From positions 14,759 through 78,758 of the IMG/VR virus record IMGVR_UViG_2865671049_000004: a stretch of 64,000 bases of DNA; one strand, 5' to 3'. Source of the DNA: a virus. Its lineage: Duplodnaviria; Caudoviricetes. The notes below the pieces were generated by a model. It did no database searches. It worked only from the letters and a program-made list of their open reading frames with translations, and had not been told where the DNA came from. The translations under genes were made by a program, and so were the position numbers. Shown in pieces: positions 24,040 through 40,919 of the stretch (its first letter is position 1; each line of letters begins with the position of its first letter).

Positions 24040-24489
24040 ATGACGCCAGCCGAAAGGTTCGCGGCCTGGCTCAAGCCGGCCATGCGGAACGCCGGTCTCG
24101 ACGTTGACCGCCAGCAGGGCGGCGGCCGGGCCGCGCTCGCCAAGGCATGCGACGTATCTCGCAGCACGGTGGGCCGCTGGCTGGACGGTCAGAGCCTGCC
24201 GGCAGCCAGCCACTTCAAGCCCATCGCCGACACCCTCAACCTGCCGGTCGCCGACGTACTCGTAGCCGGCGGGATCATCTCTCAGGACGACCTCGACGCC
24301 CCGCCCGTGACGCTCAACACGGAAGAGAGCATCGCGGCGCTGGCAGTGCGCTGGGGCATCCCCGAGGAGAACATGCCCATGTTCCGCGCTTCGGTGGAGG
24401 CGCTTGCCACCGGCTTCGCCGCGGGCCGCAAGCCGGAGGAGACACCCAAGCGGCGCCGCACCGTTCGACGCCCGACGGCATCCGAGTAG
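24040..24489 (+). CDS. CI-like immunity repressor (XRE HTH)
   Basis: AALAKACDVSRSTVGRWLDGQSLP; GGGAGG RBS. Confidence 0.85.
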   Translation: MTPAERFAAWLKPAMRNAGLDVDRQQGGGRAALAKACDVSRSTVGRWLDGQSLPAASHFKPIADTLNLPVADVLVAGGIISQDDLDAPPVTLNTEESIAALAVRWGIPEENMPMFRASVEALATGFAAGRKPEETPKRRRTVRRPTASE

Positions 24490-24500: not shown

Positions 24501-24534
24501 CTGCGCCCCACCATCCCGCGATGGTGGGGCGCAG
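24501..24534. terminator. Bidirectional terminator between convergent genes
   Basis: ctgcgccccaccatc-ccgc-gatggtggggcgcag. Confidence 0.8.
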
Positions 24535-24546: not shown

Positions 24547-24816
24547 CTACTCGTTCGTACCGTCGTCCGACGACTTGAGCCGCCTCTCGATCTTCTTGCC
24601 CGGCTGCTTGGGATTGGCCTCGAAGTAGGCCTCCACCGCCTCGGCGTTGAAGCGGAGCCGCGTGCTGCCCTCGGCGGCGACGGGGGAAGGGAAGACACCC
24701 CGCCGGCGGAGGTTATGGACGGTCTGCCTGCTCACTCCGTGGCGCTCTGCGATTTCGCCGATGGTCAACAGTTCTGGTGCCTCCTCTCGCTGCGGGTCCT
24801 GCGGCATGTCAGTCAT
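24547..24816 (-). CDS. AlpA/Xis-like HTH protein (candidate tra-operon regulator)
   Basis: LLTIGEIAERHGVSRQTVHNLRRRGVFPSP..RF.AEAVEAY; divergent from the tra operon promoter. Confidence 0.8.
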   Translation of the reverse strand: MTDMPQDPQREEAPELLTIGEIAERHGVSRQTVHNLRRRGVFPSPVAAEGSTRLRFNAEAVEAYFEANPKQPGKKIERRLKSSDDGTNE

Positions 24817-24831
24817 TGTGCCCGATTCCTC

Positions 24832-24867
24832 TTGACTATGTAAAGAGGTTCCGCCTAAGGTGGAACC
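24832..24867 (+). promoter_or_regulatory. tra-operon promoter with overlapping palindromic operator
   Basis: TTGACT-N18-TAAGGT; GGTTCCGCCTAAGGTGGAACC (24847-24867) covers the -10 box. Confidence 0.7.
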
Positions 24868-24878
24868 CAGAACGACAA

Positions 24879-24985
24879 AGCCCCGGCGGTGGTGAGACAC
24901 CAGTCCGGGGCTGCAAGACGGGCCTGGCCGGTGGTGAGACACCGGCCAGGCCCAACCCCGGAGCGGTGTGAGATACCGCGCCGGG
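24879..24985 (+). repeat. Three tandem stem-loops with an identical GTGAGA loop in the operon leader
   Basis: ggtgGTGAGAcacc twice (second with a perfect 14-bp stem) and gcggtGTGAGAtaccgc. Confidence 0.8.
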
Positions 24986-25021
24986 AGCCCAGCCCACCTG
25001 CGTGAACAGGAAGGCAAGACC

Positions 25022-25225
25022 TTGACGAATGGTAAGGGGTTCACCCCCTCCAGCGACAGCACCCCGGATCTCGTCGAGCCGCAGCGCTCCGAGCCGACCC
25101 TCCCCTACGGCGCCCCCTTCATCGGCGTCGACACCCTCCCCACCCGCGGTGCTTCCAGCTACCCGGGCTCGTCGACCTACCGTCGACCCGCCGCCACCAC
25201 CCTGCGGCCCGGGAGCAGCCAGTGA
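25022..25225 (+). CDS. Small hypothetical protein
   Basis: TTG start after CAGGAAGG; GTGA coupling to the next ORF. Confidence 0.5.
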   Translation: MTNGKGFTPSSDSTPDLVEPQRSEPTLPYGAPFIGVDTLPTRGASSYPGSSTYRRPAATTLRPGSSQ

Positions 25226-25314
25226 GCGACGACGACTGGAAGCCCGGCCCCGTGATCCCCAAGTTCCCCAGGCAGCGGAAGCCCCCGCCGCCCGCACCGA
25301 AGGAGAAGCCCTGA
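25222..25314 (+). CDS. 30-aa Pro-rich peptide
   Basis: MSDDDWKPGPVIPKFPRQRKPPPPAPKEKP*; TGATG coupling. Confidence 0.5.
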   Translation: MSDDDWKPGPVIPKFPRQRKPPPPAPKEKP

Positions 25315-25502
25315 TGGCCACCACCTTCCAGGAGCAGCAGGACAACGCCGCCTCCGTCGCCCGCGCCCTCGGCGACATCACCACCGACACCACCCCCGCC
25401 GACGCCCAGGCCGTCATCGACCAGCTCGCCGACGAGCAGGTCTACAACAACTCCGTCCGCATCCTCCGCATCCTCGGCTGGGACGAACCGGCCGCCGCCT
25501 GA
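25314..25502 (+). CDS. Small hypothetical protein
   Basis: MATTFQEQ...DEPAAA*, AAGGAG RBS. Confidence 0.7.
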   Translation: MATTFQEQQDNAASVARALGDITTDTTPADAQAVIDQLADEQVYNNSVRILRILGWDEPAAA

Positions 25503-25623
25503 CCACCAACCCGCCCGAAGGAGACCCAAGACGGCCAGCCCGTCCAACGGGCCACCGCCGAACAGAACGCCAACGCGCACGCCGGCACCTGCCGCCGCAT
25601 CCCCGCCTGAACAGGAGATCCCA

Positions 25624-25809
25624 ATGGCCACCTACGAACAGCAGACCATCGACAGCTACACCCGCGCCCGCCGCGAAGCCGATCTCGACGCCATGGGTGC
25701 CCTGATCGATGCCGCAAACAAGTACGACTCGCTCAACCCCGGCAAGAACCTCTACCAGCGCCTCATCGACGTTGCCATCCGCATGCCGCTCAACACCGCC
25801 ACCGGCTGA
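25624..25809 (+). CDS. Small hypothetical protein
   Basis: 61 aa, CAGGAG RBS. Confidence 0.7.
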   Translation: MATYEQQTIDSYTRARREADLDAMGALIDAANKYDSLNPGKNLYQRLIDVAIRMPLNTATG

Positions 25810-25892
25810 CCGCCGGCCGGCGCCGCACAGCTCCAGCTGCGCGGCGGCCGCAGGCACTCAGTCGACATCCCAACTCCGAAGGAACCCACAAC

Positions 25893-26075
25893 ATGCCCAC
25901 CAACCAGATCGCCGAGGCCGCTATCACCGGCCGCTCCGGCGGATGCGACCTCCCCGTCCGGGTCCTCAACGACAACGGCACCACCGCCCAGATCCTCATC
26001 GAGGGCACCGGCATCTACCTCACCCAGGGCCAGGTCCACACCGTCTCCACCACCGACGTCCGCCCCAACCGCTAA
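25893..26075 (+). CDS. Small beta-rich hypothetical protein
   Basis: 60 aa, GAAGGA RBS. Confidence 0.7.
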   Translation: MPTNQIAEAAITGRSGGCDLPVRVLNDNGTTAQILIEGTGIYLTQGQVHTVSTTDVRPNR

Positions 26076-26148
26076 CCACCCCCGGCGCGCTCCACCGGAT
26101 CAACCTGCACCGGACGCGCCCGCCGCACCCCCAAGGAGGGAGAACCCC

Positions 26149-26847
26149 ATGGAACACAACGTCATCACCCTCGACGGACAGCCCTACCCGACGCGGAACA
26201 ACCCGCCTCGGCCCATCCTCGGCTGCGGCAGCCGCGACCTCTACAACCTCCCCGACGACCAGTACCGCAGGGTCGTCGCCATCCACGAAGCCGGCCACGC
26301 CATCGCCCACCTTGCCGGCGGCAACGCTCACCTCATCCACGCCAGCATCTCCGACGACCTCGACGCGGAGATCACCGGCACCGTCAAGGCCTGGTCCTAC
26401 GACCTCCACGCACCCGCCGCAGTCATCACAGACTGCGCCGGCGAGCGAGCCGTCGACAAGTGGCTCCACCTCTCCGGCCTGTGGACGGACGAACGCGCCA
26501 TCGCCGCCGAGATCGGCGCCCGATCCGACCGCGCCCTCGCACTCAACGTGCCCGGCATGACCCAGGCCCTCCTGCGCGGCATGCACACCCCCACCGACGA
26601 CCTCCTCGCCGCCCACTGGCCCAGCGTCGAGGCCGTAGCCGAAGCCCTCATCAGCGCCCGGCACCTGACCGGCGACCAGGTCGCTCGCATCACCGGCCTG
26701 TCCAACCGGGCCCGACCCGCCATCACCCACCTCACCTCCTCGAAGGAGACCGTCATGGCCGACCAGCAGACCACCACCCAGCCCGAGCCCGCCCCGGCCC
26801 CGCAGGAGCAGCCCACCCAGAGCCGCGTCCCCCTCGACATCGTCTGA
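26149..26847 (+). CDS. Zn-metallopeptidase (M41/FtsH-protease-domain-like)
   Basis: VAIHEAGHA zincin motif; AGERA; SDRALA; HWPSVEAVAEAL...LTGDQV. Confidence 0.7.
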   Translation: MEHNVITLDGQPYPTRNNPPRPILGCGSRDLYNLPDDQYRRVVAIHEAGHAIAHLAGGNAHLIHASISDDLDAEITGTVKAWSYDLHAPAAVITDCAGERAVDKWLHLSGLWTDERAIAAEIGARSDRALALNVPGMTQALLRGMHTPTDDLLAAHWPSVEAVAEALISARHLTGDQVARITGLSNRARPAITHLTSSKETVMADQQTTTQPEPAPAPQEQPTQSRVPLDIV

Positions 26848-26936
26848 CCCCCCCGCTGGCCGGTGCGCGACCAACCCGCACCGGCCAGGCCATGACATGC
26901 ATATGCCATTACAGCCACTCGCCGAAGGGACGTGCC

Positions 26937-28310
26937 GTGACCGAGCCCGACCTCTCCACCGACCGCTGGCTCCCCATCACCAGCGTCCTGCCCCCTGCCA
27001 CGCCCCAGCCCAAGCCGGCTGCCGACAAGCGCATCCAGCGCATGACCGCCCGCGCCGCCGAGAAGCGCGCCAACCGCCACGACGCCCTCCAGCTCCGCGC
27101 CGAGGAGCGCCGCACCCTCCGCGAGGAGCGCAGCGCGGCCCGCACCGAGGCCCGCGAACTGCGCGCCGAGAAGCGCGCAGACCGCACCGAAAGCGCCCAC
27201 CGCGCCAAGGACCGCGCCACCGCCCTCGGCCGCGGCGTCCTCGTCACCGGCCCAATCCTCGCCCCCATGGCCGTCGCCTGGACCGGCCAGTCCCAGTTCG
27301 CCATCCAGATCCTCGGCTGGGCCTTCGCCGCCAGCGTCCTCTACGCCGCCGCGTACGAGCTGACCACCGTCTACTGGGCCTGGCTCTACCATCAGGCCCG
27401 CACCGACGGCGACAGCGGCTGGGAGTACCGACTCGGCACGTGGGTCTTCGCGGCCGGCGCAGCGGTCCAGCAGTGGTGGCACTACTCGGACCACTGGGCA
27501 GCCACCCCCCGGGCCGTCACCTACTCGGTCATGTCCGCCGTCGGCGTCCTGCTCTGGGAAGGCCGGGCCCGCTTGATCCACCGGCGCAAGATGCGGGCCG
27601 AGAACAAGCTGGCGCCGGCCCGGCCCAGGATCGGCGTGGCCCGCTGGGTCCGCTACCCGGTCCGGTCCTGGACCGCCTGGTCGCTCATCACCCTCGAAGG
27701 CCACCAGACGCTGGACGCCGCGTGGACCGCCGCGGACACCGCCGTGCGGTCCAGGAAGACGGACCGCACAGACCGGACCGGACGCCGGTCCACCTGGTGG
27801 GCCGTGCAGCGGACCGACGAACCGGACCGTAAGTCGCCGGCCGCCGTGGACCGGCCCGGCCGGACCACCCTTCCGGTCGCTGGACCGGACCGGGCCGCAG
27901 CTGTCCGGACCGAGCACGTGGATCTCACCGAGTCGGTCCGGACCACACGTCGTGGACCGGACCGGGCCAGCGGGACCGGACCGCGAGGATCCACCGGTCC
28001 GGACCACACGGACCGGACCGGAATGTCCGGCACGGACCGTCAGCGGACCGCCGGGTCCAGCAAGACGGACCGGACCGCCCCCGCAGGCGACGTACCCAGC
28101 ACGGACCTGCCGCCCGCGGACCGGACCGAAGCGGACCTGGTCCTCAACGAGACCGAGCAGGCGGCCATCGACCTCCTGCAAGCCGAAGCCCGGTCCATCA
28201 GCAAGCGGTCCATCGCCGACACGGTCCGGGCCAAACTCGGCCGGTCCATCGCCTCGGACCGGGCCGCCGAAATCGCCCGCCACTACCGGACCCTTCGGTC
28301 CGCCGCCTGA
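26937..28310 (+). CDS. DUF2637-like (Spd-type) membrane protein with a repeat region and C-terminal HTH
   Basis: Coiled coil, about 4 TM helices, APARPRIG..RW..YP.RSW.AWSL, T/D/R/G/P repeat region, C-terminal ISKRSIADTVR..GRSIASDRA. Confidence 0.7.
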   Translation: MTEPDLSTDRWLPITSVLPPATPQPKPAADKRIQRMTARAAEKRANRHDALQLRAEERRTLREERSAARTEARELRAEKRADRTESAHRAKDRATALGRGVLVTGPILAPMAVAWTGQSQFAIQILGWAFAASVLYAAAYELTTVYWAWLYHQARTDGDSGWEYRLGTWVFAAGAAVQQWWHYSDHWAATPRAVTYSVMSAVGVLLWEGRARLIHRRKMRAENKLAPARPRIGVARWVRYPVRSWTAWSLITLEGHQTLDAAWTAADTAVRSRKTDRTDRTGRRSTWWAVQRTDEPDRKSPAAVDRPGRTTLPVAGPDRAAAVRTEHVDLTESVRTTRRGPDRASGTGPRGSTGPDHTDRTGMSGTDRQRTAGSSKTDRTAPAGDVPSTDLPPADRTEADLVLNETEQAAIDLLQAEARSISKRSIADTVRAKLGRSIASDRAAEIARHYRTLRSAA

Positions 28311-28440
28311 CGGTCCACCCCCAGACCGGACCGGACCGCCATCACCGAGGAGAGACCATGACCACCCCGCCGCCGTTCCACCTCCCCCGCCCGGCCCGGT
28401 CCGCCGACAGCAATGCCGGACCGCGCCGGACCCGGACCGC
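27660..28440. repeat. Dense GG(A/T)CC(G) array spanning the 3' half of the DUF2637-like gene, the intergenic gap and the start of traA
   Basis: Hand count of about 34 GGACC and 14 GGTCC in about 780 bp, in several reading frames. Confidence 0.85.
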
Positions 28441-28954
28441 CCCCACCAGCGGGCCCGGCCCGCAGTCCGTCACCAACAACCGCACCCGGCAGGGAGGCGG
28501 CTTCAACCCCACCCTCGGCTTGAACCTCAACTTCGCCAAGGGCGCTCCGCAGGCCGGGACCCCCAGCCCGGCCCCCGCGGCTGGCCCGGGCGCCCCCGCC
28601 GCCGGCCGCGGCACCCCCGGAGCGTCCTTCATGTCCAACGAGGACATCCGCGCGTTCTCCGAGCACCTCCGCAAGGGCGCCCGCAACCGGGCCGTGGAAC
28701 GAGCCATGGACGCCGAACAGCTCGAAGCGGTCCTGCGTCACATCCCCACCCAGGACGGATCCATGGGCGGTGCCCGACTCCGGGCCCGCCGTGTCTCCCG
28801 CCACCTCAAGAAGATCGCGAAGGCGGAGCAGGCCATTGCAAAGGCCGCCGCCGCGCTCTACGCCCAGTTCGAGCAGGAATACGAGGCGAACCTGCGCAAG
28901 GTCGGCAAAGCCCGCGGCCCGCAGCCCACCCGCTTCACCTTCGGCGCCTCCTGA
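28358..28954 (+). CDS. traA: Streptomyces plasmid transfer protein TraA-like
   Basis: FMSNEDIRAFSEHLRK.AR.RA.ERAMDAEQLEAVLRHIP...RARARRVSRHLK..AKAE; directly upstream of traB. Confidence 0.65.
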   Translation: MTTPPPFHLPRPARSADSNAGPRRTRTAPTSGPGPQSVTNNRTRQGGGFNPTLGLNLNFAKGAPQAGTPSPAPAAGPGAPAAGRGTPGASFMSNEDIRAFSEHLRKGARNRAVERAMDAEQLEAVLRHIPTQDGSMGGARLRARRVSRHLKKIAKAEQAIAKAAAALYAQFEQEYEANLRKVGKARGPQPTRFTFGAS

Positions 28955-29024
28955 CACCCCTGACACCGCACCCGACCTGCACTGACACCCTCTGACACCC
29001 CGGAGTGACATCGTGACCGACACC
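28951..29024 (+). repeat. CTGACACC direct repeats upstream of traB (candidate TraB recognition sequences)
   Basis: CTGACACC at 28951, 28960, 28982, 28992; degenerate GTGACATC (29005) and CCGACACC (29017). Confidence 0.8.
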
Positions 29025-30998
29025 GCCCCGGCCGCCGCGAGGAAGGCCCTGCAGCACCCCCGCACCAGGCCCTGGCTCGTCGTCGCGGCCGAACTCCCCG
29101 CCACCTTCACCACCCACTACGTCTGGGGCAACAGCGCCCTCGCCGGCGCCGGCCTCACCCTCGCCGCCGGGGCCGTCACCGCCGCCACCTGGTTCGCCAG
29201 CCAAGGAAGCACCCACCAGCGGCGCGTCCACGCCACCGCCACCGCGGCCCTCGCCACCGGCTACCTCGTCATCGGCACCGCCGCCAACCCCTACGACCCC
29301 ACCCTCGTATCCACGCTGGTCATCGGCGGTGCCACCCTCGCCGGCACGTGGAACATCCGCCAGGTCCTCCGCGTCAACCCGGACACGAAGGCCATCGAGA
29401 AGGCCCCCGCCGAGGCCGGGATCCTCACCAAGTCCATCGGCGCCGCGAAGGTCCTGCTGCGTGGGAAGCCGAAGGTCGAGGCGAACAAGGTCACCGCCGA
29501 ACTGCAGCTCGCCCCGGGCGAACTGTCCACCGACGAACTCGGCAACCGCACCAAGCAGATCGCCGGTGAGCTGGGCGTTTCCGCCAACAGCATCAAGATC
29601 CTGCCCGACCCGGACCGTGCTGACCGCGCCACCCTCATCGTCGTCCCCGAGGACATGCTCAAGAAGACCACCCCGTGGCCCGGCCCGTCCTGCCTCGGCG
29701 ACTCCATCACCGAGCCCGTCGAGATCGGCATCTACGAGGACGGCGAGGTCGCCGTCCTGTGGTTCCCCGCCGGCCCCGGCCGCAACGCCACGCACTTCCT
29801 CACCGCCGGGATGAACGGCGCGGGGAAGTCCGCCGGCCAGTCCGTCGCCATCACCGAAGTCCTGACCAGGCGAGATGTCATCGTCTGGGCGATCGACCCC
29901 AGCAAGGGCCTGCAGACGTTCGCCCCGTTCCTGCCCTACCTGGACTGGGTGGAGATGACGATGTCCGGCGGCGAGGCGATGATCGCCGCCCTCGGCCAGG
30001 TCATCACCGCCCGCGCCAACGAGATGGGCAAGCACGGCTACAAGAACTGGACCCCCGAGGTGTACGAGCGCCTCGACATGCCGTACATGGTCGTGTGGAT
30101 CGAGGAGGCCGCGAAGTTCTTCCGCGAAGGCACCGAGATGGAAGGCCTCGTCATGGAGGCCCGCTCCGCCGGGATCTCCGTCATCATCAGCCTCCAACGC
30201 CCCTCCGCCACCTCCATGCCCACCGACGTCCGTGAGCAGCTCGGCGGCGCCCTCGTCTTCGGAGTGAAGGGCTCCACCACCGCCGACATGGCCCTTCCCG
30301 AGGACGTCCGCGACGCCGGCGCCCGCCCCGAGGTCTGGCAGAACCGCAAGCCCGGCTACTGCTACCTCGTCGCCCCCGGCGTCGACGAGGAGCGCTACCC
30401 CTTCCCCATCCGCACCTACTACATCACCGACGACCAGATCGAAGGGACCCTCGCCCTCGCGCCCCGCCCCACCGCCGACCCGGTCACCGCCCGCGCCGCC
30501 GGCGAGGCCTACGCCAACCGAGCCATCCACCTCCCCGACGGCGTCTACACCACCCCCACCAGCGCAGACACCATCACCGACGTGGAGCAGCAGGACATCA
30601 TGGACGACGAGGACCAGCGCATCCAGGCCGCCGTCGATAGGGAACTGGTCCTCGACGGTGCCGACGACGACGGCTCCCCGAGCCCCGACGTCGACCCCGA
30701 GCAGGAGATCGCCGCCCCCGCGGTCCTCTGGTCCTTCGGCCAGGCCCCGCCCGCCAGCGCCGAGGTCACCACCGAGCAGGCCCTAGGCGCGGTCCTCCTG
30801 CTCCTGGAGGTCTTCCGCGACGAGGGGCGCACCATCATCGGCCCCAAGGACTTCATGCCGCACCTGCCCGCCATCGGCCGCTCCCGCGCATGGCTCTCCC
30901 CGCAGCTCGCCGACCTCGGTGAGGCTGGCATCCACCTGCAGCCGACCGGGCGGCCCGGCGAGTACCACCTCCTCGACCCGCAGTTCGCCGACGCCTGA
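29013..30998 (+). CDS. traB: TraB, FtsK/SpoIIIE-like conjugative dsDNA translocase
   Basis: N-terminal TM helices; Walker A AGMNGAGKS; Walker B VVWIEEA; ARSAGISVIISLQRPS; C-terminal wHTH. Confidence 0.9.
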   Translation: MTDTAPAAARKALQHPRTRPWLVVAAELPATFTTHYVWGNSALAGAGLTLAAGAVTAATWFASQGSTHQRRVHATATAALATGYLVIGTAANPYDPTLVSTLVIGGATLAGTWNIRQVLRVNPDTKAIEKAPAEAGILTKSIGAAKVLLRGKPKVEANKVTAELQLAPGELSTDELGNRTKQIAGELGVSANSIKILPDPDRADRATLIVVPEDMLKKTTPWPGPSCLGDSITEPVEIGIYEDGEVAVLWFPAGPGRNATHFLTAGMNGAGKSAGQSVAITEVLTRRDVIVWAIDPSKGLQTFAPFLPYLDWVEMTMSGGEAMIAALGQVITARANEMGKHGYKNWTPEVYERLDMPYMVVWIEEAAKFFREGTEMEGLVMEARSAGISVIISLQRPSATSMPTDVREQLGGALVFGVKGSTTADMALPEDVRDAGARPEVWQNRKPGYCYLVAPGVDEERYPFPIRTYYITDDQIEGTLALAPRPTADPVTARAAGEAYANRAIHLPDGVYTTPTSADTITDVEQQDIMDDEDQRIQAAVDRELVLDGADDDGSPSPDVDPEQEIAAPAVLWSFGQAPPASAEVTTEQALGAVLLLLEVFRDEGRTIIGPKDFMPHLPAIGRSRAWLSPQLADLGEAGIHLQPTGRPGEYHLLDPQFADA

Positions 30999-31150
30999 CA
31001 CTCCACTGACAGGCCCCTGACCTGCACCGACGGGACCGCTGACACCTTCCTGCCCTGTCAGGACCTGTCAGCGGCCCCGTCAGGCCGCTGACACGGCCGC
31101 CCACCTATAGGAAAGCGATCAACCACCCCGCTGTCAGCCGGCGCTGACAG
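30995..31150. repeat. Candidate clt locus: about 10 CTGAC(A) copies in both orientations downstream of traB
   Basis: CTGACA at 30995, 31006, 31039, 31088, 31144; CTGACC 31017; reverse TGTCAG at 31056, 31066, 31132; CGTCAG 31078. Confidence 0.8.
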
Positions 31151-31170
31151 CCGAGCCCGAGGACGCCCGC

Positions 31171-31596
31171 ATGACCCGGAATCGACGCCCCCCGCGAGCA
31201 GCCGTCCTTGCCGCAGCCCTGCACTCCTGGACCACCACCACCGCCGCAGGTGACCAGGGCGAACCGGCCACGCGCCTCGCCGTCCGCCAAGGGCCCACCT
31301 GGGAGCACATCGCTACTGCCAGCCTCACCGACGTGCAGGTCACCCGACTGCTCGCGGCGCTGCGTGCCGACCTCGTTCCCGACCAGCCCGCCACTCCGAT
31401 GCAGGTGGCGGCGACCCTCGATCAGTTGCTCGCCGAGTGGCGGGCCGAGGGTCGCCGCATCGTCCGCCCCAGTGACCTTGTCGAGGCGCTGCCCCGGCTC
31501 GGCTGCACGACTGCCGAGCTCGCCGCCCAGCTCGTCCGTCTTGTCGACGACCGCTACTTGCACGAGACCCGCCACCCCGGCACCTACCGCCTCTGA
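31171..31596 (+). CDS. Protein whose C-terminal half is a paralogue of the TraB wHTH domain
   Basis: 25/68 identities by hand alignment to the TraB C-terminus (LL..WR.EGR.I..P.DL...LP..G...L..QL..L...L..T..PG.Y.L). Confidence 0.8.
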   Translation: MTRNRRPPRAAVLAAALHSWTTTTAAGDQGEPATRLAVRQGPTWEHIATASLTDVQVTRLLAALRADLVPDQPATPMQVAATLDQLLAEWRAEGRRIVRPSDLVEALPRLGCTTAELAAQLVRLVDDRYLHETRHPGTYRL

Positions 31597-31613
31597 CCAC
31601 CGTGGAGAACCCG

Positions 31614-32078
31614 ATGAACACTCAGAGCGCCAACAATCCACCCGTCTACCAGCCGACCCCGATCCCGTTCCTGCCCGCCCCTGTTCGGGCGCCCCAGCCG
31701 CTGGTCCAGCAGTTGCCCGGAGTCGTCGTCACCCCCGACGGGCAGCTGTACCACGGCTACCCGCCGATCCCGTACCCGGAGCCCCTCCCCCCAGACCCGC
31801 GGCCGAAGTTGCTGGCGAGCGCCGGCGTCTTCGGCGCGGGCGTCGGCTGGGGCGGGGCGCAGTTGCTGGGCGCGCTGGCCGGCGTCTCCACGGGGACACT
31901 GCTCGCGGCGACAGTCGCGGTGATCGCCCTGAAGACGAAGCTGCCGACGCCCGGGGGCGCTGGGGGCGGGACGGTGTACAACCACACCGAGCACAATCAC
32001 CACCACACCACCGCCACGGGCCTGTTCGGCCGGGCCACCACCGCGATCAACAGCGCGCGCACCAACAACTTCAACTGA
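31614..32078 (+). CDS. Pro-rich membrane protein (SpdD-like spread protein)
   Basis: Pro-rich N-terminus, two hydrophobic segments, YNHTEHNHHH tail; located in the tra locus. Confidence 0.55.
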   Translation: MNTQSANNPPVYQPTPIPFLPAPVRAPQPLVQQLPGVVVTPDGQLYHGYPPIPYPEPLPPDPRPKLLASAGVFGAGVGWGGAQLLGALAGVSTGTLLAATVAVIALKTKLPTPGGAGGGTVYNHTEHNHHHTTATGLFGRATTAINSARTNNFN

Positions 32079-32136
32079 CACAGCCGCCCGCCCCTGACAT
32101 TTCCAGGGGCGGGCACCGGCGCGAGAGGATGAACCC

Positions 32137-32415
32137 ATGAGCGAGCCCTATGCCCCCTTCCCCGGATCCGTAGAACTCAGCGCGACTGTCGAAGTCAACG
32201 GGCGCCGCTACCAAGCCCGCACCCAGGCTCCCCTGCAGGACTGGCAGCGGGACGAGCAGTACCAGGAGTGGCTGAAGGCGGATCTTCTGCGGTCCCTCGG
32301 CGAGGGGATCGTGAAGGGTCTCGCCCCCGAGGTCATGGTCACCCTGCCCGGCCCGACCCTGCAGGAGGCGCTCACCGACGCGCTCCGCCCCTTCGACTAC
32401 CCGACCGAGTACTGA
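32137..32415 (+). CDS. Hypothetical protein
   Basis: 92 aa, GAGAGG RBS. Confidence 0.7.
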   Translation: MSEPYAPFPGSVELSATVEVNGRRYQARTQAPLQDWQRDEQYQEWLKADLLRSLGEGIVKGLAPEVMVTLPGPTLQEALTDALRPFDYPTEY

Positions 32416-32795
32416 TGAGCACCGACCTGGCCGGGTTCCTGCTGGCCCGCCTCGACGAGGACATCGTCGAGATTGGGCGGCACCCGGATGGCGAGGACTA
32501 CTACCTCGAACCCTGGGATCTGGCAGCTGCTGTGGAGGCCAACTACCCGTGCTCGGCGTACCTCCAGATCGCAAAGGTTCGCGCACTGGCCGAGGTCGAC
32601 GCCAAGCGGTGCATCATCGACGAGCATCACGATGTCAACGACGGCAGCTGCGGCACATGCGTCACGCCCAGCTGGGGCTACCCCACCCACGGCAGCGCAT
32701 CGCCCGCCGCGTGGCCGTGCACCACACTCCGCCTGCTCGCCCTACCGTACGCGGCTCACCCCAACTACCGACCCGAGTGGGCACCCACCGCCTGA
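32415..32795 (+). CDS. DUF6221-like protein
   Basis: DLAGFLLARLDED...LAEVDAKR.IIDEH...PCTTLRLLALPYAAHPNYRPEW. Confidence 0.75.
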   Translation: MSTDLAGFLLARLDEDIVEIGRHPDGEDYYLEPWDLAAAVEANYPCSAYLQIAKVRALAEVDAKRCIIDEHHDVNDGSCGTCVTPSWGYPTHGSASPAAWPCTTLRLLALPYAAHPNYRPEWAPTA

Positions 32796-32810
32796 GTCTG
32801 CAGCGCACGA

Positions 32811-32845
32811 AAGCCCCGCCCTTCACCGGGCGGGGCTTCGTCGTT
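32811..32845 (+). terminator. Intrinsic terminator ending the tra operon
   Basis: aagccccgccc-ttcacc-gggcggggctt then cgtcgttt. Confidence 0.8.
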
Positions 32846-32945
32846 TGCAGAACCCGTCGCCACCCGTGCTCCGATAGGACCGCCCGCGAGGGCCCGGGAC
32901 CCCCTCCGCCCGGCCGCTGACCACCCGCGCCCACCGGAGGAACCC

Positions 32946-33392
32946 GTGGCCGACATCGCCTTCGTCGTAGCCCTCGGTCGCCAGGCCTACTACGCGTCCC
33001 TGCCCGCCGCCAACGACGCCCTCATCGCTGTACCCATCGAAACCAGCGGCATCGTTGCCGACGCCACCATGCGCGACTACGCCGACCTCGCCACCCTCCT
33101 CGCCGGCGCCAGCAACGAGCAGACGACTCTCGGCCGCAAGACGCTGGCCAGTGTCACCGTCACCGTTGACACCGCCAACGACCGCGTCGCCCTCGACTGC
33201 GCAGACATCACCTGGACCGCCACCGCCGGCAACGCCATCAGTGCAGTCCTCATCTGCTACGACCCCGACACCACCGGCGGCACCGACGCCGACATCATCC
33301 CCCTCACCAAGCACGGCGTGACCATGACCCCGGACGGCAACGACTTCACCCTCACCGTCGCCGACTTCTGCCGGATCACCTCGGCGGCCTGA
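32946..33392 (+). CDS. Probable virion structural protein (beta-rich)
   Basis: RKTLASVTVTVDTANDRVALDCADITWTA..GNAISAVLICYD; first gene of the late region. Confidence 0.65.
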   Translation: MADIAFVVALGRQAYYASLPAANDALIAVPIETSGIVADATMRDYADLATLLAGASNEQTTLGRKTLASVTVTVDTANDRVALDCADITWTATAGNAISAVLICYDPDTTGGTDADIIPLTKHGVTMTPDGNDFTLTVADFCRITSAA

Positions 33393-33411
33393 GCCACCGC
33401 CAGGAGCCCCC

Positions 33412-34920
33412 ATGACCGGCATCTCGGCCCTGGTCGACAACTTCAACGACAACACCGTCAACGGCACCCTATGGCCCGGCAACTACGGCACCTACCAGGA
33501 AACCGGCGGCCGGGCCCGCGTCGCCTGCGACACCGGCTTCAACGCCTACAAGTCCGGAACGATCTACACACTGACCGGCTCGTCCGTGTTCCTGCAGGTC
33601 TTCCCGCCAGCCGCGACGGGAGCCGCCACCTCCACCTGCACCATGTTCCTCACCACCACGACCGCGGGCACCGACGCAGGCTTCCTCATCGACACCGCCG
33701 GCAACGCCATGGGCATCTATCTGCGCTCCGGGTTCGCCGACGCCGGCGCGGTGTTCCTCACCTACAGTGCGACCGACCACGCGTGGCTGCGGCTCCGCGA
33801 AGCCGCGGGGTCGCTGTACTGGGAGACCAGTCCGAACGGTACGACCTGGACGGTCCAGCGGACCGCCGCCACCCCAGCCTGGGCCACGGACACGACGCTC
33901 AGCCTGTTCATGGACTCCCACCGCGACGCGGGCACCAACAACTGGGCCGAATACGACAACCTCAACTCGTTGCCAGTCACCACCATCGCCCTCGGCCCGG
34001 CAGCTTCCGTGTCCACTGCCCAGCCCCTTGTGGCGCGGCGCAGCACCACCCTCGGTGTCGCCACCGTCACCACCACGGCGCAGCACCCCGCCGCGGCCAA
34101 GACCCGAACCGCAGGCATCGCGGGCAGCACCGCCACCGTCCAGCCGTCGGCCGGCGCGAAAACCGGGCACCTCGGCCAAGCCGCCGCCAGCACCAGCGCA
34201 GCCACCCTCCCCGGCACCAAGCAGGCCTCGGCCACCCCCGCCGGAACGGCCAGCACCGCCCAGGCCACCACCAGCGCCAAGGCCCGCCAGCTCGGCCAAG
34301 CCGGCACCACCGCGACCCCGCGCACCCTGGCCGGCGCCAAGACCGCGCCCGTAGGCACCACGGCGGCAGTCGCCACCCCGCTCGCCTTCACCCCACGCCG
34401 TTCCGCGCCCCTCAACCCGGCCGGCACCAGCAGCACCGCCCAACCTGCCCCCGGCTACAAGCAGCGCACCCTCACCCCCGCCGGCGAGACCGCCACCTCC
34501 CGAACCCTCGCACCACCCGCACCACCCACCCACGCCATCCACCTCCAACTCACCGGCCCGCCCACCACCGCCTGGGCCACCCACGGCACCACCACCCCCT
34601 GGACCTGCACCGGAAGGACCGCCCCCGTGGACGCCCTCAGCACGGAGTACTACGAAGTCGGCGTCACCTGGGACCGCGGCACTCCCACCGCCCTCGACGT
34701 CCAGATCGCCATCATCCCCGTCGGCCACGAACCCGCCCTTGCGGACTGGCACCCCGCCCAGTGGGACACCACCAGCACCGGCACCACCGTCGCCAAGCTC
34801 CTCGTCGGCCCCGACGGCGGCGCCCTCGCCCCCACCCCCGGCCGCTACCGCGCCTGGGTGAACGTGGCCGCCACACCCGAACACCCCGTGCTCTCCACCG
34901 CCCCCTTCGACATCACCTGA
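33412..34920 (+). CDS. Probable virion minor/decoration protein with about nine 20-aa Thr/Ala-rich repeats
   Basis: N-terminal beta domain LVDNFNDN; repeats LGxAxxxxTAQxxxxxKxxx; C-terminal beta domain with internal RBS+GTG near 34627. Confidence 0.65.
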   Translation: MTGISALVDNFNDNTVNGTLWPGNYGTYQETGGRARVACDTGFNAYKSGTIYTLTGSSVFLQVFPPAATGAATSTCTMFLTTTTAGTDAGFLIDTAGNAMGIYLRSGFADAGAVFLTYSATDHAWLRLREAAGSLYWETSPNGTTWTVQRTAATPAWATDTTLSLFMDSHRDAGTNNWAEYDNLNSLPVTTIALGPAASVSTAQPLVARRSTTLGVATVTTTAQHPAAAKTRTAGIAGSTATVQPSAGAKTGHLGQAAASTSAATLPGTKQASATPAGTASTAQATTSAKARQLGQAGTTATPRTLAGAKTAPVGTTAAVATPLAFTPRRSAPLNPAGTSSTAQPAPGYKQRTLTPAGETATSRTLAPPAPPTHAIHLQLTGPPTTAWATHGTTTPWTCTGRTAPVDALSTEYYEVGVTWDRGTPTALDVQIAIIPVGHEPALADWHPAQWDTTSTGTTVAKLLVGPDGGALAPTPGRYRAWVNVAATPEHPVLSTAPFDIT

Positions 34921-34979
34921 CCGTTCGCAACCCCGCAGCCTCCCCGGGCGATCATCCAAGTCGACCCGAGGAGGACCCC

Positions 34980-35444
34980 ATGTCCGACGTCAACCGCTGG
35001 GAGAAGGTCGGCGTGTCCCTGCGCCGAGCCTCCCTCGTCAAGGCCCGCATCGACGGCGTCTCCTTCGAAGAGATCGCCAACGACCCCCACTTCGGATACA
35101 AGGGCTCCGAGTCCGCCGCCCGCAAGGACTTCACCCGCGCCAAGCGCGCCGCGTCCCAGGCCGAGCAGGAGATGGCCGACACGTGGATCGAGCTGCAGGT
35201 CGACCGGCTGGAGCACTACCTGGCCGCGCTCGCCCCGCGGGTCGACAGGGGTGAGCCGCGGGCGATCGAGGTGGCGATCGCCGCGTGCAAGGAGATCGCG
35301 AAGCTGCGGGGCATCAACGCTGCGATCAAGGTCGATGCGACGGTCACCGAGACGACGTCCGTGGACCTCGAACTCCGCGACATGATCAACGAGGCGAAGG
35401 CGCGCGTCGCCGCCGAAGAAGCCGCCCTGCGAGGCGAGCAGTGA
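34980..35444 (+). CDS. terS: Terminase small subunit
   Basis: HTH-like RIDGVSFEEIA; LQVDRLEHY; IAKLRGINA; position upstream of terL. Confidence 0.7.
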   Translation: MSDVNRWEKVGVSLRRASLVKARIDGVSFEEIANDPHFGYKGSESAARKDFTRAKRAASQAEQEMADTWIELQVDRLEHYLAALAPRVDRGEPRAIEVAIAACKEIAKLRGINAAIKVDATVTETTSVDLELRDMINEAKARVAAEEAALRGEQ

Positions 35445-35905
35445 CCGAGACCCACTACTACCTGGAGTCCCTCGTCCCGTCATGGCTCGCCGCCGACCCC
35501 GGGTACGTCGCGGCGCTCGGCGAACACCTGGCCGCCCGCATGGAACTTCAGGGCTACGAGGTCACCTCCGGGCCCGTCGTGGTGCCCGCCCACACGGAAG
35601 CGCGCGTCCCGGTCGGCATGACCCTCGTCCGCGCCGAGATCGGCGTCGAGGAGTTCGACCTCGACATGGACGACGACGCGTCCCGCCCGGCCGGCCCATG
35701 GCTCGCCTGGCAGCAGGACGACTTCACCGTGCACAGCGTCCCCCTGGACGACCTCATCGTCCACGACTTCACCGACGACTGCCCGTGCGGCCCCGACCAG
35801 ATCCCCATCCCCCGAGTCGACGGCGCTCAAGGCTGGATCGTGCGGCACCACTCCCTCGACGGCCGCGAGCAGCACGAGGCGTCGCCGGGCCCGTCAGGGG
35901 GGTAG
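35441..35905 (+). CDS. Hypothetical protein between the terminase subunits
   Basis: HSVPLDDLIVHD..DCPCGP...HHSLDGRE motif. Confidence 0.65.
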   Translation: MTETHYYLESLVPSWLAADPGYVAALGEHLAARMELQGYEVTSGPVVVPAHTEARVPVGMTLVRAEIGVEEFDLDMDDDASRPAGPWLAWQQDDFTVHSVPLDDLIVHDFTDDCPCGPDQIPIPRVDGAQGWIVRHHSLDGREQHEASPGPSGG

Positions 35906-35908
35906 CGC

Positions 35909-37468
35909 ATGCTCGACACCATCACCGAGCCCCTGGACTCCTACCTTGCCGGCGTCGACGCCGAGGCCTTCAACCTCGACCGGTTCCTCGACCAGTACGT
36001 CCCCGACTCCAGGGTCCTGGACGACGCCGAAGGCCGGCGCGCCCTCACCCGCCTCAACCCGCTCCTCTTCGGTCTCGTCTACCTGCGCCACCACCTCACC
36101 GATGCCGAGGGGACTGTGAGTTTCGGCGACGCCCACCTGGACTGGGTGCGCGCCGCTCGACGCTGGATCCGCCCGCCGACCAGACCGGCTGAGCAGCGTG
36201 ACGCCTACATCGCGCCGCGCTCCACCGGGAAGTCCACGATGTGGTTCCTCGTCCTGCCGATGTGGGCCGCCGCGCACGGCTTCGTGAAGTTCATCGCGGC
36301 GTTCTCCGCGTCCGCCGCGCAGGCCGAGGCGCACCTGTCGACGTTCAAGCTGGAGCTCGACAACAACGCGCGCCTGCGGGAGGACTACCCGGACCTGTGC
36401 GCGCCGGCGAAGCGCCCCAACGGCGGGAACGTCGCGGACACGCAGCGGATGTACGTCGCCGCGTCCCAGTTCGCGTTCGCCGCCCGCGGTATGGACTCCT
36501 CCAGCCTCGGCATGAAGGTCGGCTCGCACCGGCCCGACCTGCTGTTGCTCGACGATGTCGAGCCGGATGAGTCGTCATATTCGGCTGACCAGGCAGGCAA
36601 GCGCCTCACGACGCTGAAGGACGCCATCCTGCCGCTCAACATCTACGCGCGGGTCGTGCTGGTCGGAACGGTTACGATGCCAAACAGCATCGTGCACCAA
36701 CTTGTCAAGCACGGCCGCGGCGTGGAGACCGCCGAGTGGATCCGCGACGAGAACTTCCGGGCGCACTACTCGGCGCCGATCATCCGCGCCGACGACGGTG
36801 CTGAGCGCAGCATGTGGCCCGCCAAGTGGCCGCTCGCCTACCTGAAGTCCATCGAACACACCAGGTCCTACGCCAAGAACATGGCCAACGACCCGATGGG
36901 TGCCGACGGCGACTACTGGTGCGCCGAGGACTTCCGCTACGGCACCGAACCCGCCACGCACATGATGCTCAGCATCGACCCCGCCGTCACAGCGAAGGCC
37001 ACGTCCGACTACACCGGGCTGGGCGTCGTCTCCTGGTCCGCCCGGACGAAGTCCTGCACCGTGCACGCCGCGATCCCCGTCCGGATCCCGCCTGGCGCGA
37101 AGCTCCGCGAGCGGGTCCTCGCAGTCCTCGACGAGTTCCCGGAGATCGGCCTGATCGTCATCGAGACGAACCAGGGCGGCGACGCATGGGCGGCGATCCT
37201 GCACAGCATGCCCGTCAAGGTGAAGACCCTGCACCAGCGGGAGCCGAAGGAAGTGCGGGCCGCCCGGGTCCTCAACCACTACCAGCGCGGCCGGGTCCTG
37301 CACGCCAAGCCCCTGCGGGACCTGGAGGAGCAGATGGTTGCGTTCCCGAAGGCACCGCACGACGACCTCGTCGACTGCGTCGGTTCGGCGATCAGCAGGT
37401 TCCTCGACCCGCCGAAGCGGCCCGCGCCGGCGTCGGCGTCGAAGCAGTCATACGTCGGGCGCCGCTGA
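35909..37468 (+). CDS. terL: Terminase large subunit
   Basis: Walker A APRSTGKST; Walker B LLLLDDVE; nuclease SIDPA, IETNQGG, HDDLVD. Confidence 0.92.
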   Translation: MLDTITEPLDSYLAGVDAEAFNLDRFLDQYVPDSRVLDDAEGRRALTRLNPLLFGLVYLRHHLTDAEGTVSFGDAHLDWVRAARRWIRPPTRPAEQRDAYIAPRSTGKSTMWFLVLPMWAAAHGFVKFIAAFSASAAQAEAHLSTFKLELDNNARLREDYPDLCAPAKRPNGGNVADTQRMYVAASQFAFAARGMDSSSLGMKVGSHRPDLLLLDDVEPDESSYSADQAGKRLTTLKDAILPLNIYARVVLVGTVTMPNSIVHQLVKHGRGVETAEWIRDENFRAHYSAPIIRADDGAERSMWPAKWPLAYLKSIEHTRSYAKNMANDPMGADGDYWCAEDFRYGTEPATHMMLSIDPAVTAKATSDYTGLGVVSWSARTKSCTVHAAIPVRIPPGAKLRERVLAVLDEFPEIGLIVIETNQGGDAWAAILHSMPVKVKTLHQREPKEVRAARVLNHYQRGRVLHAKPLRDLEEQMVAFPKAPHDDLVDCVGSAISRFLDPPKRPAPASASKQSYVGRR

Positions 37469-37528
37469 GCGTCGCAGCATGTGGGCCGCCCCCTCCTATG
37501 GTGATCGCGAATCGACTTGGAGGACGCG

Positions 37529-40122: not shown

Positions 40123-40195
40123 TCACAGTCCTGCCAGAAGGCGGCGTTACGGTCGCCGCCAGTAGCCGACGAGCCCCCGCGATGGGAGACACCCC

Positions 40196-40801: not shown

Positions 40802-40919
40802 GCATCCGCCATACCGTTTGATCACGCCACCCGGTGATCGGGAGGCCACCTGTTCGAGGCGCCCGTGATGGGGCCCGAGCCCACCAGCTCCGCCCCATCA
40901 CCCGCCCCAGGAGGGCCCC

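What the first reader, a model, noticed from the sequence alone, without database searches (positions are those of the whole stretch)
24547..32845. Complete tailed phage with a Streptomyces TraA/TraB conjugation operon in the slot next to the repressor
Seen: immediately after cI come a divergent HTH with promoter/operator, small ORFs, a Spd-like gene, traA, traB (intact Walker A/B and wHTH), candidate clt repeats and a terminator, and then an apparently intact virion module; no integrase is seen in 64 kb. Established: TraB alone translocates dsDNA between hyphae after binding 8-bp clt repeats, and the plasmid-phage pZL12 is a precedent for a dual lifestyle. Inference: one replicon that spreads both by virions and by hyphal conjugation, with the two programmes wired into adjacent switches; conjugation could bypass receptor limits and defences that act on injected DNA.
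Basis: partly seen in the sequence, partly recalled or inferred. Interest (0 to 1): 0.85.

Follow-up and report, generated by a model that had tools for sequence, protein, structure and literature searches.

The report
Streptomyces prophage carrying plasmid conjugation genes
A complete-looking tailed prophage of a Streptomyces-type bacterium carries, between its repressor region and its DNA-packaging genes, an intact plasmid-style DNA-transfer module (TraA, TraB pump and its DNA recognition repeats), so it may spread both as virus particles and by hyphal mating; one such element (pZL12) has been described before, so this is a new member of a rare known kind.

Summary
Window 24040-32851 holds a cI-like repressor, a convergent HTH_17 regulator and three operator-like palindromes. 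A rightward operon follows, with small ORFs, a DUF2637 membrane protein, TraA (NCBIfam equivalog passed) and TraB (791 bits against a cut-off of 800; FtsK fold plus C-terminal wHTH). CTGACAC(C) repeats bracket traB, and a strong terminator closes the operon. An intact siphovirus packaging, head, tail and lysis set comes next.

The repeat is the same motif that the TraB homologue of plasmid pWTY27 footprints in its clt. It recurs downstream of traB in all six homologous loci I examined.

The tra block is not a nested AICE. It has no integrase or rep gene and no flanking repeats. A collinear Kitasatospora prophage (portal 94% identical) carries a different DUF2637 + FtsK-like pair in the same slot.

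The plasmid-like reading is weak. The 78.8-kb record is an IMG/VR provirus cut at gene borders, it encodes a Gp3-like RDF, and the sister prophage has a large serine integrase just beyond the point where this record starts.

The same TraB clade (at least 52% identical) occurs in 15 other IMG/VR virus records and on plasmids pCQ3 and pCQ4 next to virion genes. The published precedent is pZL12. Verdict: new member of a known kind. Transfer function is inferred, not shown.

The parts
24040..24489 (+). cI-like HTH_3 repressor gene (149 aa), divergent from the leftward early/replication operon
   Evidence: Pfam HTH_3 E 1e-5 and phrog_3949 'transcriptional repressor' E 4e-15; GC3 0.87
24503..24533 (.). 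Hairpin terminator between the convergent cI-like gene and the HTH_17 gene
   Evidence: RNA fold -37.2 kcal/mol, z -8.0; region conserved in the Kitasatospora relative
24547..24816 (-). HTH_17 (MerR/excisionase-like) regulator, divergent from the tra-containing operon; the longest ORF runs to 25062
   Evidence: Pfam HTH_17 E 1.7e-9; phrog_66 'excisionase and transcriptional regulator' E 1e-14; promoter-like site 24844-24815 on the minus strand
24879..24985 (.). Three tandem palindromes/hairpins (core GGTGGTGAGACACC) in the divergent control region; candidate operators
   Evidence: fold z -8.06. Function is inferred
25022..26075 (+). Five small ORFs at the head of the rightward operon; DNA homology with the sister prophage ends at about 25861
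   Evidence: GC3 gene calls; homology map
26149..26847 (+). 232-aa protein of no known family, first gene of the variable slot
   Evidence: No Pfam, PHROG or NCBIfam match; GC3 0.93
26937..28310 (+). DUF2637 membrane protein (457 aa) with a hydrophilic repeat-rich linker and a C-terminal HTH-like tail; the 'Spd-like' gene
   Evidence: Pfam DUF2637 24.9 bits (cut-off 22.8), phrog_10376; a DUF2637 gene holds the same position upstream of traA-traB in pWTY27 and in the Kitasatospora slot; hydrophobic runs at residues 94-143
27660..28440 (.). Dense GGWCC array (48 sites) in the 3' half of the DUF2637 gene, running into traA
   Evidence: 48 sites against 3.9 per kb in the window; absent from homologous tra loci
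28358..28954 (+). traA (198 aa)
   Evidence: NCBIfam NF041213 plasmid_TraA equivalog, 105 bits against cut-off 80; 54% identical to pCQ3 traA
28951..29000 (+). Four direct CTGACACC repeats in the traA-traB gap
   Evidence: also present upstream of traB in pCQ3, L006 and L007
29013..30998 (+). traB: FtsK-like dsDNA translocase with hydrophobic N-terminus, motor domain and C-terminal winged helix
   Evidence: NF041214, 791.2 bits against cut-off 800, model positions 7-637 of 639; 64% identical to pCQ3 and pCQ4 traB, 37% to pWTY27; AF2 plus Foldseek FtsK 6t8g/2ius E 1e-15
30995..31150 (.). Candidate clt: 8 CTGACA(C) copies in both orientations, starting on the traB stop codon
   Evidence: 8 of the window's 25 copies, P about 6e-16; same motif after traB in six homologous loci and in the pWTY27 clt footprinted by its Tra protein
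31333..31596 (+). Free-standing paralogue of the TraB C-terminal wHTH domain (87 aa; the longer ORF starts at 31171)
   Evidence: Matches NF041214 positions 565-632; 37% identical to TraB 588-656; homologue after traB in pCQ3 and L037; lacks the SRxW recognition residues
31602..32795 (+). Three further genes of the slot: 158 aa and 92 aa (no family) and a DUF6221 protein (32415-32795)
32797..32851 (+). Terminator that closes the rightward operon; right border of the variable slot
   Evidence: -40.6 kcal/mol, z -5.8; the same hairpin is conserved in the Kitasatospora prophage
32946..53976 (+). Late operon: packaging, head and tail genes (terminase 35909-37468, portal 37517-39112, scaffold 40196-40801, capsid 40920-41825, major tail 43843-44403, tape measure 45241-49410, minor tail 50631-53471)
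   Evidence: Pfam and PHROG hits; 76-95% protein identity to the Kitasatospora prophage
60350..61602 (+). Lysis genes: Amidase_2 endolysin and holin

Best explanation
The window is most of an 80-90 kb temperate siphovirus prophage of a Streptomycetaceae host. Between the immunity region and the late operon lies a variable slot inside the rightward operon. In this phage the slot holds a plasmid-type transfer module: DUF2637 membrane protein, TraA, TraB, CTGACACC clt repeats and a small wHTH paralogue. Proposed mechanism, inferred from plasmid work: once the prophage is a circular dsDNA, after excision by a serine integrase plus the Gp3-like RDF, TraB hexamers bind the CTGACACC repeats through the C-terminal winged helix. 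They then pump the double-stranded phage genome into a neighbouring hypha or across septal cross-walls, with the DUF2637 protein assisting as Spd proteins do. The element would then have a second, virion-independent transmission route, as shown for the plasmid-phage pZL12. Shown here: the identity and intactness of the parts, the conserved clt motif, the phage context, and the modular nature of the slot. Inferred: expression, excision, and actual transfer.
For: TraA passes its NCBIfam equivalog cut-off. TraB aligns end to end with the TraB equivalog model and misses the cut-off by 9 bits. TraB keeps every column that is invariant across 23 homologues, including Walker A and B. Its fold is an FtsK motor plus wHTH. 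The CTGACAC(C) repeats are concentrated at traB (8 of the window's 25 copies after the stop, 4 more before the start). They are conserved after traB in pCQ3, L006, L007, L010, L011 and L013. They equal the TGACACC repeats of the pWTY27 clt, which its Tra protein footprints and which plasmid transfer needs (PMC3583192). The wHTH recognition segment SRxWxSxxL is shared with pWTY27 and pCQ3. Gene order DUF2637 - x - traA - traB - clt is the same as in conjugative pWTY27. The phage context is solid, with an intact terminase-to-holin set and whole-record collinearity with a Kitasatospora prophage. The architecture recurs: 15 IMG/VR virus records carry this TraB clade, 9 of them with a Pfam capsid hit. 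Terminase plus portal lie within 10 kb downstream of traB in 11 of 38 loci. L030 and L037 share this phage's terminase type. [quoted passage not shown] SpdB2 homologues on actinophages have been proposed to spread phage DNA (PMC4447253).
Against: TraB scores just under the curated equivalog cut-off. No integrase is present in the record, so excision competence is inferred from a relative and from the Gp3-like RDF. The nearest relative of the backbone carries a very different FtsK-like gene (23% identical) and no traA, so the slot's function may not be conjugation as such. No GntR-type Kor/TraR repressor typical of Streptomyces plasmid tra control was seen. An 80-90 kb genome is larger than most characterised TraB substrates other than pZL12-type plasmids.
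Confidence: 0.6

Rival explanations
1. The module serves spread of phage DNA within the mycelium rather than mating between strains. After infection or induction in one hyphal compartment, TraB and the DUF2637 protein move replicating or prophage DNA across septal cross-walls, enlarging the infected or lysogenised zone. This is a variant of the main reading with a different biological pay-off.
For: [quoted passage not shown] The sister prophage keeps a DUF2637 + FtsK-like pair in the same slot without traA or CTGACAC repeats, which suggests the conserved need is a translocase plus membrane partner.
Against: The module here is the full plasmid set with traA and clt. Its closest relatives lie on plasmids that NCBI names transfer proteins. 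Nothing in the sequence separates spread within a mycelium from transfer between mycelia.
Confidence: 0.2
2. The tra block is passenger DNA: a cassette captured from a plasmid by recombination into a hot spot for variable genes. It may be neutral, or used for something other than moving the phage, such as mobilising host chromosome or clt-bearing plasmids, or excluding incoming DNA.
For: Only traA, traB and the small wHTH gene are shared with pCQ3, L006 and L007, whose phage backbones are unrelated. GC is slightly higher in 26-32 kb (0.71-0.73 against about 0.68-0.69 in the flanks). The slot content differs between near-identical backbones.
Against: All genes are intact, with high GC3 and conserved motifs. 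The cis site is kept with the gene in every locus. The same position relative to packaging genes recurs on at least four unrelated backbones, which argues for selection of the combination.
Confidence: 0.13
3. A separate AICE or small plasmid is inserted in the prophage as a nested element.
For: The gene order resembles small plasmids such as pWTY27.
Against: No integrase, resolvase or Rep lies in or next to the block, or anywhere in the 78.8-kb record. There are no tRNAs. No direct repeat longer than 11 bp flanks the block. The block lies inside one operon between conserved phage flanks and a conserved terminator.
Confidence: 0.03
4. The element is an extrachromosomal plasmid-phage of the pZL12/pCQ3 type. 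Its parAB and rep genes would lie in the roughly 10 kb missing from the record.
For: No integrase in 78.8 kb. The closest TraB is on circular plasmids pCQ3 and pCQ4, which have ParAB. Many TraB homologues sit on 85-101 kb contigs.
Against: IMG/VR classes the record as a provirus, and both ends are cut at gene borders. A Gp3-like RDF is present. The collinear sister element is integrated beside host genes with a serine integrase at the matching end. No ParA or ParB was found.
Confidence: 0.15

Closest known systems
Streptomyces plasmid-phage pZL12 (Zhong et al. 2010, J Bacteriol 192:3747; cited in PMC3583192 and PMC4487206; the paper itself could not be opened)
   Same: One replicon with a tailed-phage virion gene set and a Streptomyces-type transfer locus (a major tra gene plus adjacent genes). 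The dual virion and conjugation lifestyle was shown experimentally; that detail is from my recollection of the abstract. The requirement for tra genes is stated in PMC3583192.
   Different: pZL12 is an autonomous circular plasmid with repA and parAB. This element is classed as a provirus, has no parAB, and probably integrates. I could not compare sequences directly because pZL12 was not among the plasmid hits.
Plasmids pCQ3 (NC_013449.1, Streptomyces sp. W9, 85.5 kb) and pCQ4 (NC_019307.1, Streptomyces sp. W75, 84.8 kb)
   Same: They carry the closest traA (54%), traB (64%) and downstream wHTH gene. The same CTGACAC repeats follow traB. The tra module sits upstream of capsid and tail genes.
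   Different: The virion, replication and regulatory genes are unrelated; only about 10 proteins match. pCQ3 has ParAB and a tyrosine recombinase.
Conjugative plasmid pWTY27 (NC_013667.2; PMC3583192)
   Same: Same order DUF2637 - x - traA - traB - clt. The clt consists of TGACACC repeats that start inside the 3' end of the translocase gene. The recognition-helix residues are shared. Transfer and DNA binding are shown experimentally for pWTY27.
   Different: TraB is only 37% identical. pWTY27 is a 14-kb theta plasmid with no virion module, although RefSeq annotates one 'phage major capsid protein' gene after the tra region.
AICEs (pSAM2, SLP1; PMC2440964, PMC3218068)
   Same: Integrated elements that would excise, replicate and transfer as dsDNA by a single FtsK-like Tra protein. 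If the integrase lies just outside the record, this prophage has all three AICE module types.
   Different: AICEs are 9-24 kb, have RepSA, RepAM or Prim-Pol replication genes, and no virion genes. Here replication is phage-type (DnaB, DnaC-like, SSB) and a full virion set is present.
Kitasatospora sp. NPDC057223 prophage (NZ_JBHUWW010000001.1, about 104.7-188.4 kb)
   Same: Collinear over the whole record (portal 94%, capsid 92%, tail proteins 85-95%). It has the same flanks and terminator around the slot.
   Different: Its slot holds a 335-aa DUF2637 protein and a 640-aa FtsK_SpoIIIE protein only 23% identical to this TraB. It has no traA and no CTGACAC repeats. A serine integrase is visible at its left end.

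Membership tests
Streptomyces TraB (FtsK-like conjugative dsDNA translocase; NCBIfam NF041214) | Full-length match to the curated equivalog model above its cut-off | tested here: inconclusive
   791.2 bits against a cut-off of 800, E 7e-238, model positions 7-637 of 639. This is 9 bits short. More than 100 homologues at 57-97% identity are named TraB by NCBI.
Streptomyces TraB (FtsK-like conjugative dsDNA translocase; NCBIfam NF041214) | FtsK/SpoIIIE-type motor domain with Walker A and B | tested here: met
   GMNGAGKS at residue 266 and VVWIEE at residue 360. The AF2 core has pLDDT 80-95, and the top Foldseek hits are FtsK motor domains 6t8g and 2ius, E 1e-15. Pfam FtsK_SpoIIIE itself gives no hit.
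Streptomyces TraB (FtsK-like conjugative dsDNA translocase; NCBIfam NF041214) | [quoted passage not shown] | tested here: met
   The AF2 model gives H587-603, H611-621, H625-638, E642-644 and E651-653 at pLDDT 86-92. The segment SRxWxSxxL is shared with pWTY27 and pCQ3. DNA binding was not tested.
Streptomyces TraB (FtsK-like conjugative dsDNA translocase; NCBIfam NF041214) | Cognate clt: clustered short repeats next to the gene | tested here: met
   8 + 4 CTGACA(CC) copies flank traB, P about 6e-16. They are conserved in six homologous loci and identical to the footprinted pWTY27 repeat.
Streptomyces TraB (FtsK-like conjugative dsDNA translocase; NCBIfam NF041214) | Mediates plasmid or element transfer and pock formation | not testable with these tools
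   Needs mating assays.
Plasmid transfer protein TraA (NCBIfam NF041213) | Match above the curated equivalog cut-off, encoded directly upstream of traB | tested here: met
   105 bits against a cut-off of 80. The gene ends 58 bp before traB starts.
Spd (spread) proteins / SpdB2 | Oligomeric integral membrane protein with about 4 TM helices that binds dsDNA and interacts with TraB (PMC4447253) | tested here: inconclusive
   The DUF2637 protein has hydrophobic runs only at residues 94-143 by a crude hydropathy scan. It shares the DUF2637 family and position with the gene upstream of traA-traB in pWTY27. No direct comparison with SpdB2 was made.
Plasmid-phage (pZL12 type) | Virion gene set and tra locus on one replicon | tested here: met
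Plasmid-phage (pZL12 type) | Autonomous plasmid maintenance (rep, parAB) without integration | tested here: not met
   No ParA or ParB family hit in the 78.8-kb record. The record is labelled provirus and cut at gene borders. The sister element is integrated with a serine integrase. About 12% of the genome is unseen, so this is not final.
AICE | Integrase + AICE-type replication gene (RepSA, RepAM or Prim-Pol) + FtsK-like Tra within one 9-24 kb integrated element (PMC3218068) | tested here: not met
   Tra is present. No integrase is in the record. The only replication genes found are phage-type: DnaB, IstB/DnaC-like and SSB. RepSA, RepAM and Prim-Pol were not searched for directly. The size is about 80-90 kb with virion genes.
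Complete temperate tailed phage | Terminase, portal, capsid, tail, lysis, replication and repressor genes, all uninterrupted | tested here: met
   CheckV completeness is 88%. The integrase was not seen.

The most novel reading that the evidence does not exclude
Temperate tailed phages of mycelial actinomycetes routinely keep a 'translocase slot' (a DUF2637 membrane protein plus an FtsK/TraB-family pump with its own repeat array) between immunity and packaging genes, and swap alleles of it with conjugative plasmids. In this member the slot holds a full plasmid TraA-TraB-clt set. An integrating prophage would then also be a self-transmissible AICE-like element, moving as naked dsDNA between hyphae without receptors or capsids. 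This integrative phage-AICE hybrid would be distinct from the plasmid-phage pZL12.
Probability: 0.35. Interest if true: 0.75.

Novelty: new member of a known kind. Interest (0 to 1): 0.55.

Why it matters
Phage-plasmid hybrids that can also conjugate are thought to be rare. In Streptomyces, however, conjugation needs essentially one protein and a short cis site, so a phage can afford to carry it. This locus and its relatives show the combination on several unrelated phage backbones: 15 further IMG/VR virus records, pCQ3 and pCQ4, and chromosomal loci. The sister prophage shows that the slot is exchangeable. If the module works, such prophages could reach hosts that lack the phage receptor, avoid defences that act on injected linear DNA, and mobilise chromosomal DNA. 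That would blur the line between prophages and AICEs in the main antibiotic-producing genus. It also gives a ready test system: a traB or clt knockout in a packaging-defective lysogen.

Tried and rejected
- Megablast of 24-44 kb against 50,697 phage genomes found no match.
- tblastn of TraB against the same phage genomes found only distant Bacillus (and one Xanthomonas) FtsK-like genes at 24-28% identity. No sequenced actinophage there has this TraB type. The Kitasatospora FtsK-like type hits only Streptomyces phage Gilgamesh.
- Pfam gives no hit for TraB or TraA, so NCBIfam and PHROGs were needed.
- Rfam found no family and ARAGORN no tRNA in the window.
- The simple terminator scan missed both strong hairpins because their T-runs are short. 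Folding confirmed them.
- There is no terminal repeat or end-to-start overlap in the record.
- The blastn-short comparison of the two slot borders found no shared match longer than 11 bp (one imperfect 13-bp match at 92%), so no att-like repeat.
- Phage Yara shares only head genes with this element.
- The portal search in IMG/VR gave only a 5-kb fragment.
- The pZL12 paper (PMC2897331) is not held, and pZL12 is not among the plasmid hits.
The flanks of the source contig, expression, and circular junctions could therefore not be examined.

Full report
**Where the window lies.** The window is bases 14759-78758 of a 78,758-bp IMG/VR record classed as 'provirus', with a CheckV completeness of 88%. 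The record starts exactly at an ATG and ends exactly at the stop codon of a HAD-hydrolase gene, and it has no terminal repeat. That pattern fits a segment trimmed at gene borders from a larger contig. GC is 66-74%, so I called genes by third-position GC.

**Anatomy of the flagged region.**
- A cI-like HTH_3 repressor lies at 24040-24489 (+) (phrog_3949, E 4e-15). It is divergent from a leftward early operon that includes DnaB, an HNH nuclease and Thg1.
- A strong hairpin at 24503-24533 (z -8.0) separates it from a convergent HTH_17/MerR/excisionase-like gene at 24547-24816 (-).
- The 200-bp gap to the next plus-strand genes holds three tandem palindromes (24879-24985, z -8.1). Two of them carry the exact core GGTGGTGAGACACC. 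They are plausible operators, but their function is inferred.
- A rightward operon follows:
  - five small ORFs (25022-26075);
  - a 232-aa protein of no known family (26149-26847);
  - a 457-aa DUF2637 membrane protein (26937-28310);
  - traA (28358-28954);
  - traB (29013-30998);
  - an 87-aa protein (31333-31596);
  - two proteins of unknown function;
  - a DUF6221 protein (to 32795).
- A terminator closes the operon at 32797-32851 (-40.6 kcal/mol, z -5.8).
- The late operon comes next: terminase (phrog_38), SPP1-type portal, scaffold, HK97-type capsid, major tail protein, a 1389-aa tape measure and minor tail proteins. After a minus-strand glycosylation cluster come an amidase and a holin.

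**Are these real Tra genes?**
- TraA passes the curated NCBIfam equivalog model (105 bits against a cut-off of 80).
- TraB aligns over positions 7-637 of the 639-position TraB equivalog model at 791.2 bits, 9 bits under the cut-off of 800.
- TraB is 64% identical over its full length to traB of plasmids pCQ3 and pCQ4. It is 34-38% identical to TraB of small conjugative plasmids, including pWTY27 and pJV1.
- More than 100 database homologues at 57-97% identity are named 'plasmid transfer protein TraB'.
- TraB retains every column that is invariant in a 23-sequence alignment. Walker A is at residue 266 and Walker B at residue 360.
- An AlphaFold model built on that alignment has a confident motor core (residues 220-510) and a confident C-terminal helix-helix-helix-strand-strand winged helix (587-653). 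Foldseek ranks FtsK motor domains first (6t8g, 2ius; E about 1e-15), followed by the conjugation coupling protein TcpA.

**The clt.**
- Eight of the 25 CTGACA/TGTCAG hexamers in the 64-kb window lie in 30995-31150. The first overlaps the traB stop codon, and copies occur in both orientations (Poisson P about 6e-16).
- Four direct CTGACACC copies fill the traA-traB gap.
- The same motif is clustered right after traB in pCQ3, two IMG/VR contigs and three Streptomyces genome loci.
- In pWTY27 the clt needed for transfer spans the last 16 bp of the translocase gene plus 159 bp. It contains four TGACACC repeats that the translocase footprints (PMC3583192). I confirmed those repeats in the pWTY27 sequence.
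- The recognition segment of the wHTH (SRxWxSxxL) is shared by pWTY27, pCQ3 and this TraB.
- pWTY27 also has the same gene order: DUF2637, one gene, traA, traB, clt.
- Together, the cis site and the protein that reads it are both present and conserved. This is the strongest in-silico argument that the module is functional.

**Is the block a nested AICE?** No.
- The whole record has no tyrosine integrase, large serine recombinase, resolvase, ParA or ParB.
- It has no tRNA.
- The block has no flanking direct repeat longer than 11 bp.
- The best relative of the backbone is a prophage in Kitasatospora sp. NPDC057223 (portal 94%, capsid 92%, tail proteins 85-95%). It is collinear with the entire record.
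- DNA homology stops at window 25861 and resumes at 32789. The same terminator hairpin is present at the right border in both.
- Between these points the Kitasatospora phage has 4 kb encoding a 335-aa DUF2637 protein and a 640-aa FtsK_SpoIIIE protein that is only 23% identical to this TraB. It has no traA and no CTGACAC repeats.
- The slot therefore holds a membrane protein plus a translocase in both phages, but as very different alleles. This looks like module exchange inside an operon, not insertion of an autonomous element.

**Lifestyle.** The evidence points the other way.
- IMG/VR labels the record a provirus, and its ends are cut at gene borders.
- It encodes a Gp3-like recombination directionality factor (Pfam PF18897, E 8e-37).
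- The collinear Kitasatospora prophage has a 511-aa large serine recombinase (Resolvase + Recombinase domains). It lies next to a host amino-acid permease gene, about 1.5 kb beyond the position that matches base 1 of this record.
- I therefore rate an integrating prophage as more likely than a plasmid-phage. About 12% of the genome is unseen, so this is not settled.

**How common is the arrangement?**
- No isolated actinophage among 50,697 GenBank phage genomes has this TraB type.
- A profile-seeded search found the clade (at least 52% identical) in 15 IMG/VR records, 10 labelled provirus. Nine of them have a Pfam capsid hit over the cut-off.
- The same search found 23 loci in species-representative genomes, some in complete chromosomes.
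- Terminase and portal genes lie within 10 kb downstream of traB in 11 of the 38 loci.
- These belong to at least three head-module types: phrog_9/phrog_104, this phage's own type (L030 and L037, terminase 67% identical), and the pCQ3 type.
- The combination of traA-traB-clt just upstream of the packaging genes is therefore recurrent across unrelated temperate phage backbones.

**Comparison with the literature.**
- The plasmid-phage pZL12 is the published case of a Streptomyces replicon with both a transfer locus and a virion cycle. I could not open that paper. [quoted passage not shown] - I found no paper describing a tailed, integrating prophage with a TraB-clt module.

**Verdict.** The element is a new member of the pZL12 kind, possibly an integrative variant. 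Function remains to be tested.

**Other notes from this scan.** The scan's other notes on this genome cover the CTGACA repeats, the wHTH paralogue and the GGWCC array. I reached the first two independently, before reading those notes, and I checked the third.

Noticed in passing
window 27660-28440: 48 GGWCC sites (mostly CGGACCG/GGACCGGACC) lie in 780 bp, against 3.9 per kb in the window. They sit in the 3' half of the DUF2637 gene and run into traA. They are absent from the homologous tra loci. They may be a binding array for another protein of the module.
   Followed up: partly
L020:15428-15873 (Kitasatospora G001:C1:151428-151873): Six GCATCAC/GTGATGC copies in alternating orientation lie in the 3' part of the sister prophage's DUF2637 gene, just upstream of its FtsK-like gene. 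This is the position of the GGWCC array in this window. Each slot allele may carry its own cis array.
   Followed up: partly
window 31333-31596: A free-standing 87-aa copy of the TraB C-terminal winged helix follows the clt. It lacks the SRxW recognition residues. Homologues follow traB in pCQ3 and L037. It could be a regulator or competitor at the clt, or a partner of TraB.
   Followed up: partly
window 1667-2931: A Vut_1/YhhQ-like transporter gene is followed by DpdA (PF23859, E 1e-91). This suggests 7-deazaguanine DNA modification by salvage.
   Followed up: no
window 11432-12226 (-): A Thg1-family tRNA-His guanylyltransferase-like gene sits in the early leftward operon.
   Followed up: no
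window 55077-59915 (-): A minus-strand cluster of two or three glycosyltransferases, an NDP-sugar epimerase, a methyltransferase and a DUF3307 protein lies between the tail and lysis genes. It is conserved in the Kitasatospora prophage.
   Followed up: no
L005:1755-2765 (record bases 1755-2765, left of the window): A Gp3-like recombination directionality factor (PF18897, E 8e-37) is present with no integrase in the record. The Kitasatospora relative lacks a detectable homologue at that spot but has the serine integrase.
   Followed up: partly
L056:4265-4920 (pWTY27, NC_013667.2 10642-12102): RefSeq annotates a 'phage major capsid protein' gene on the 14-kb conjugative plasmid pWTY27, just downstream of traB and clt. 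This is another link between this Tra clade and phage genes.
   Followed up: no
L011:17005-18519 (Streptomyces sp. ODS28): The same 300-kb contig carries two copies of the TraA-TraB module (L010 and L011). One copy is followed within 5 kb by a tyrosine integrase (phrog_1).
   Followed up: no
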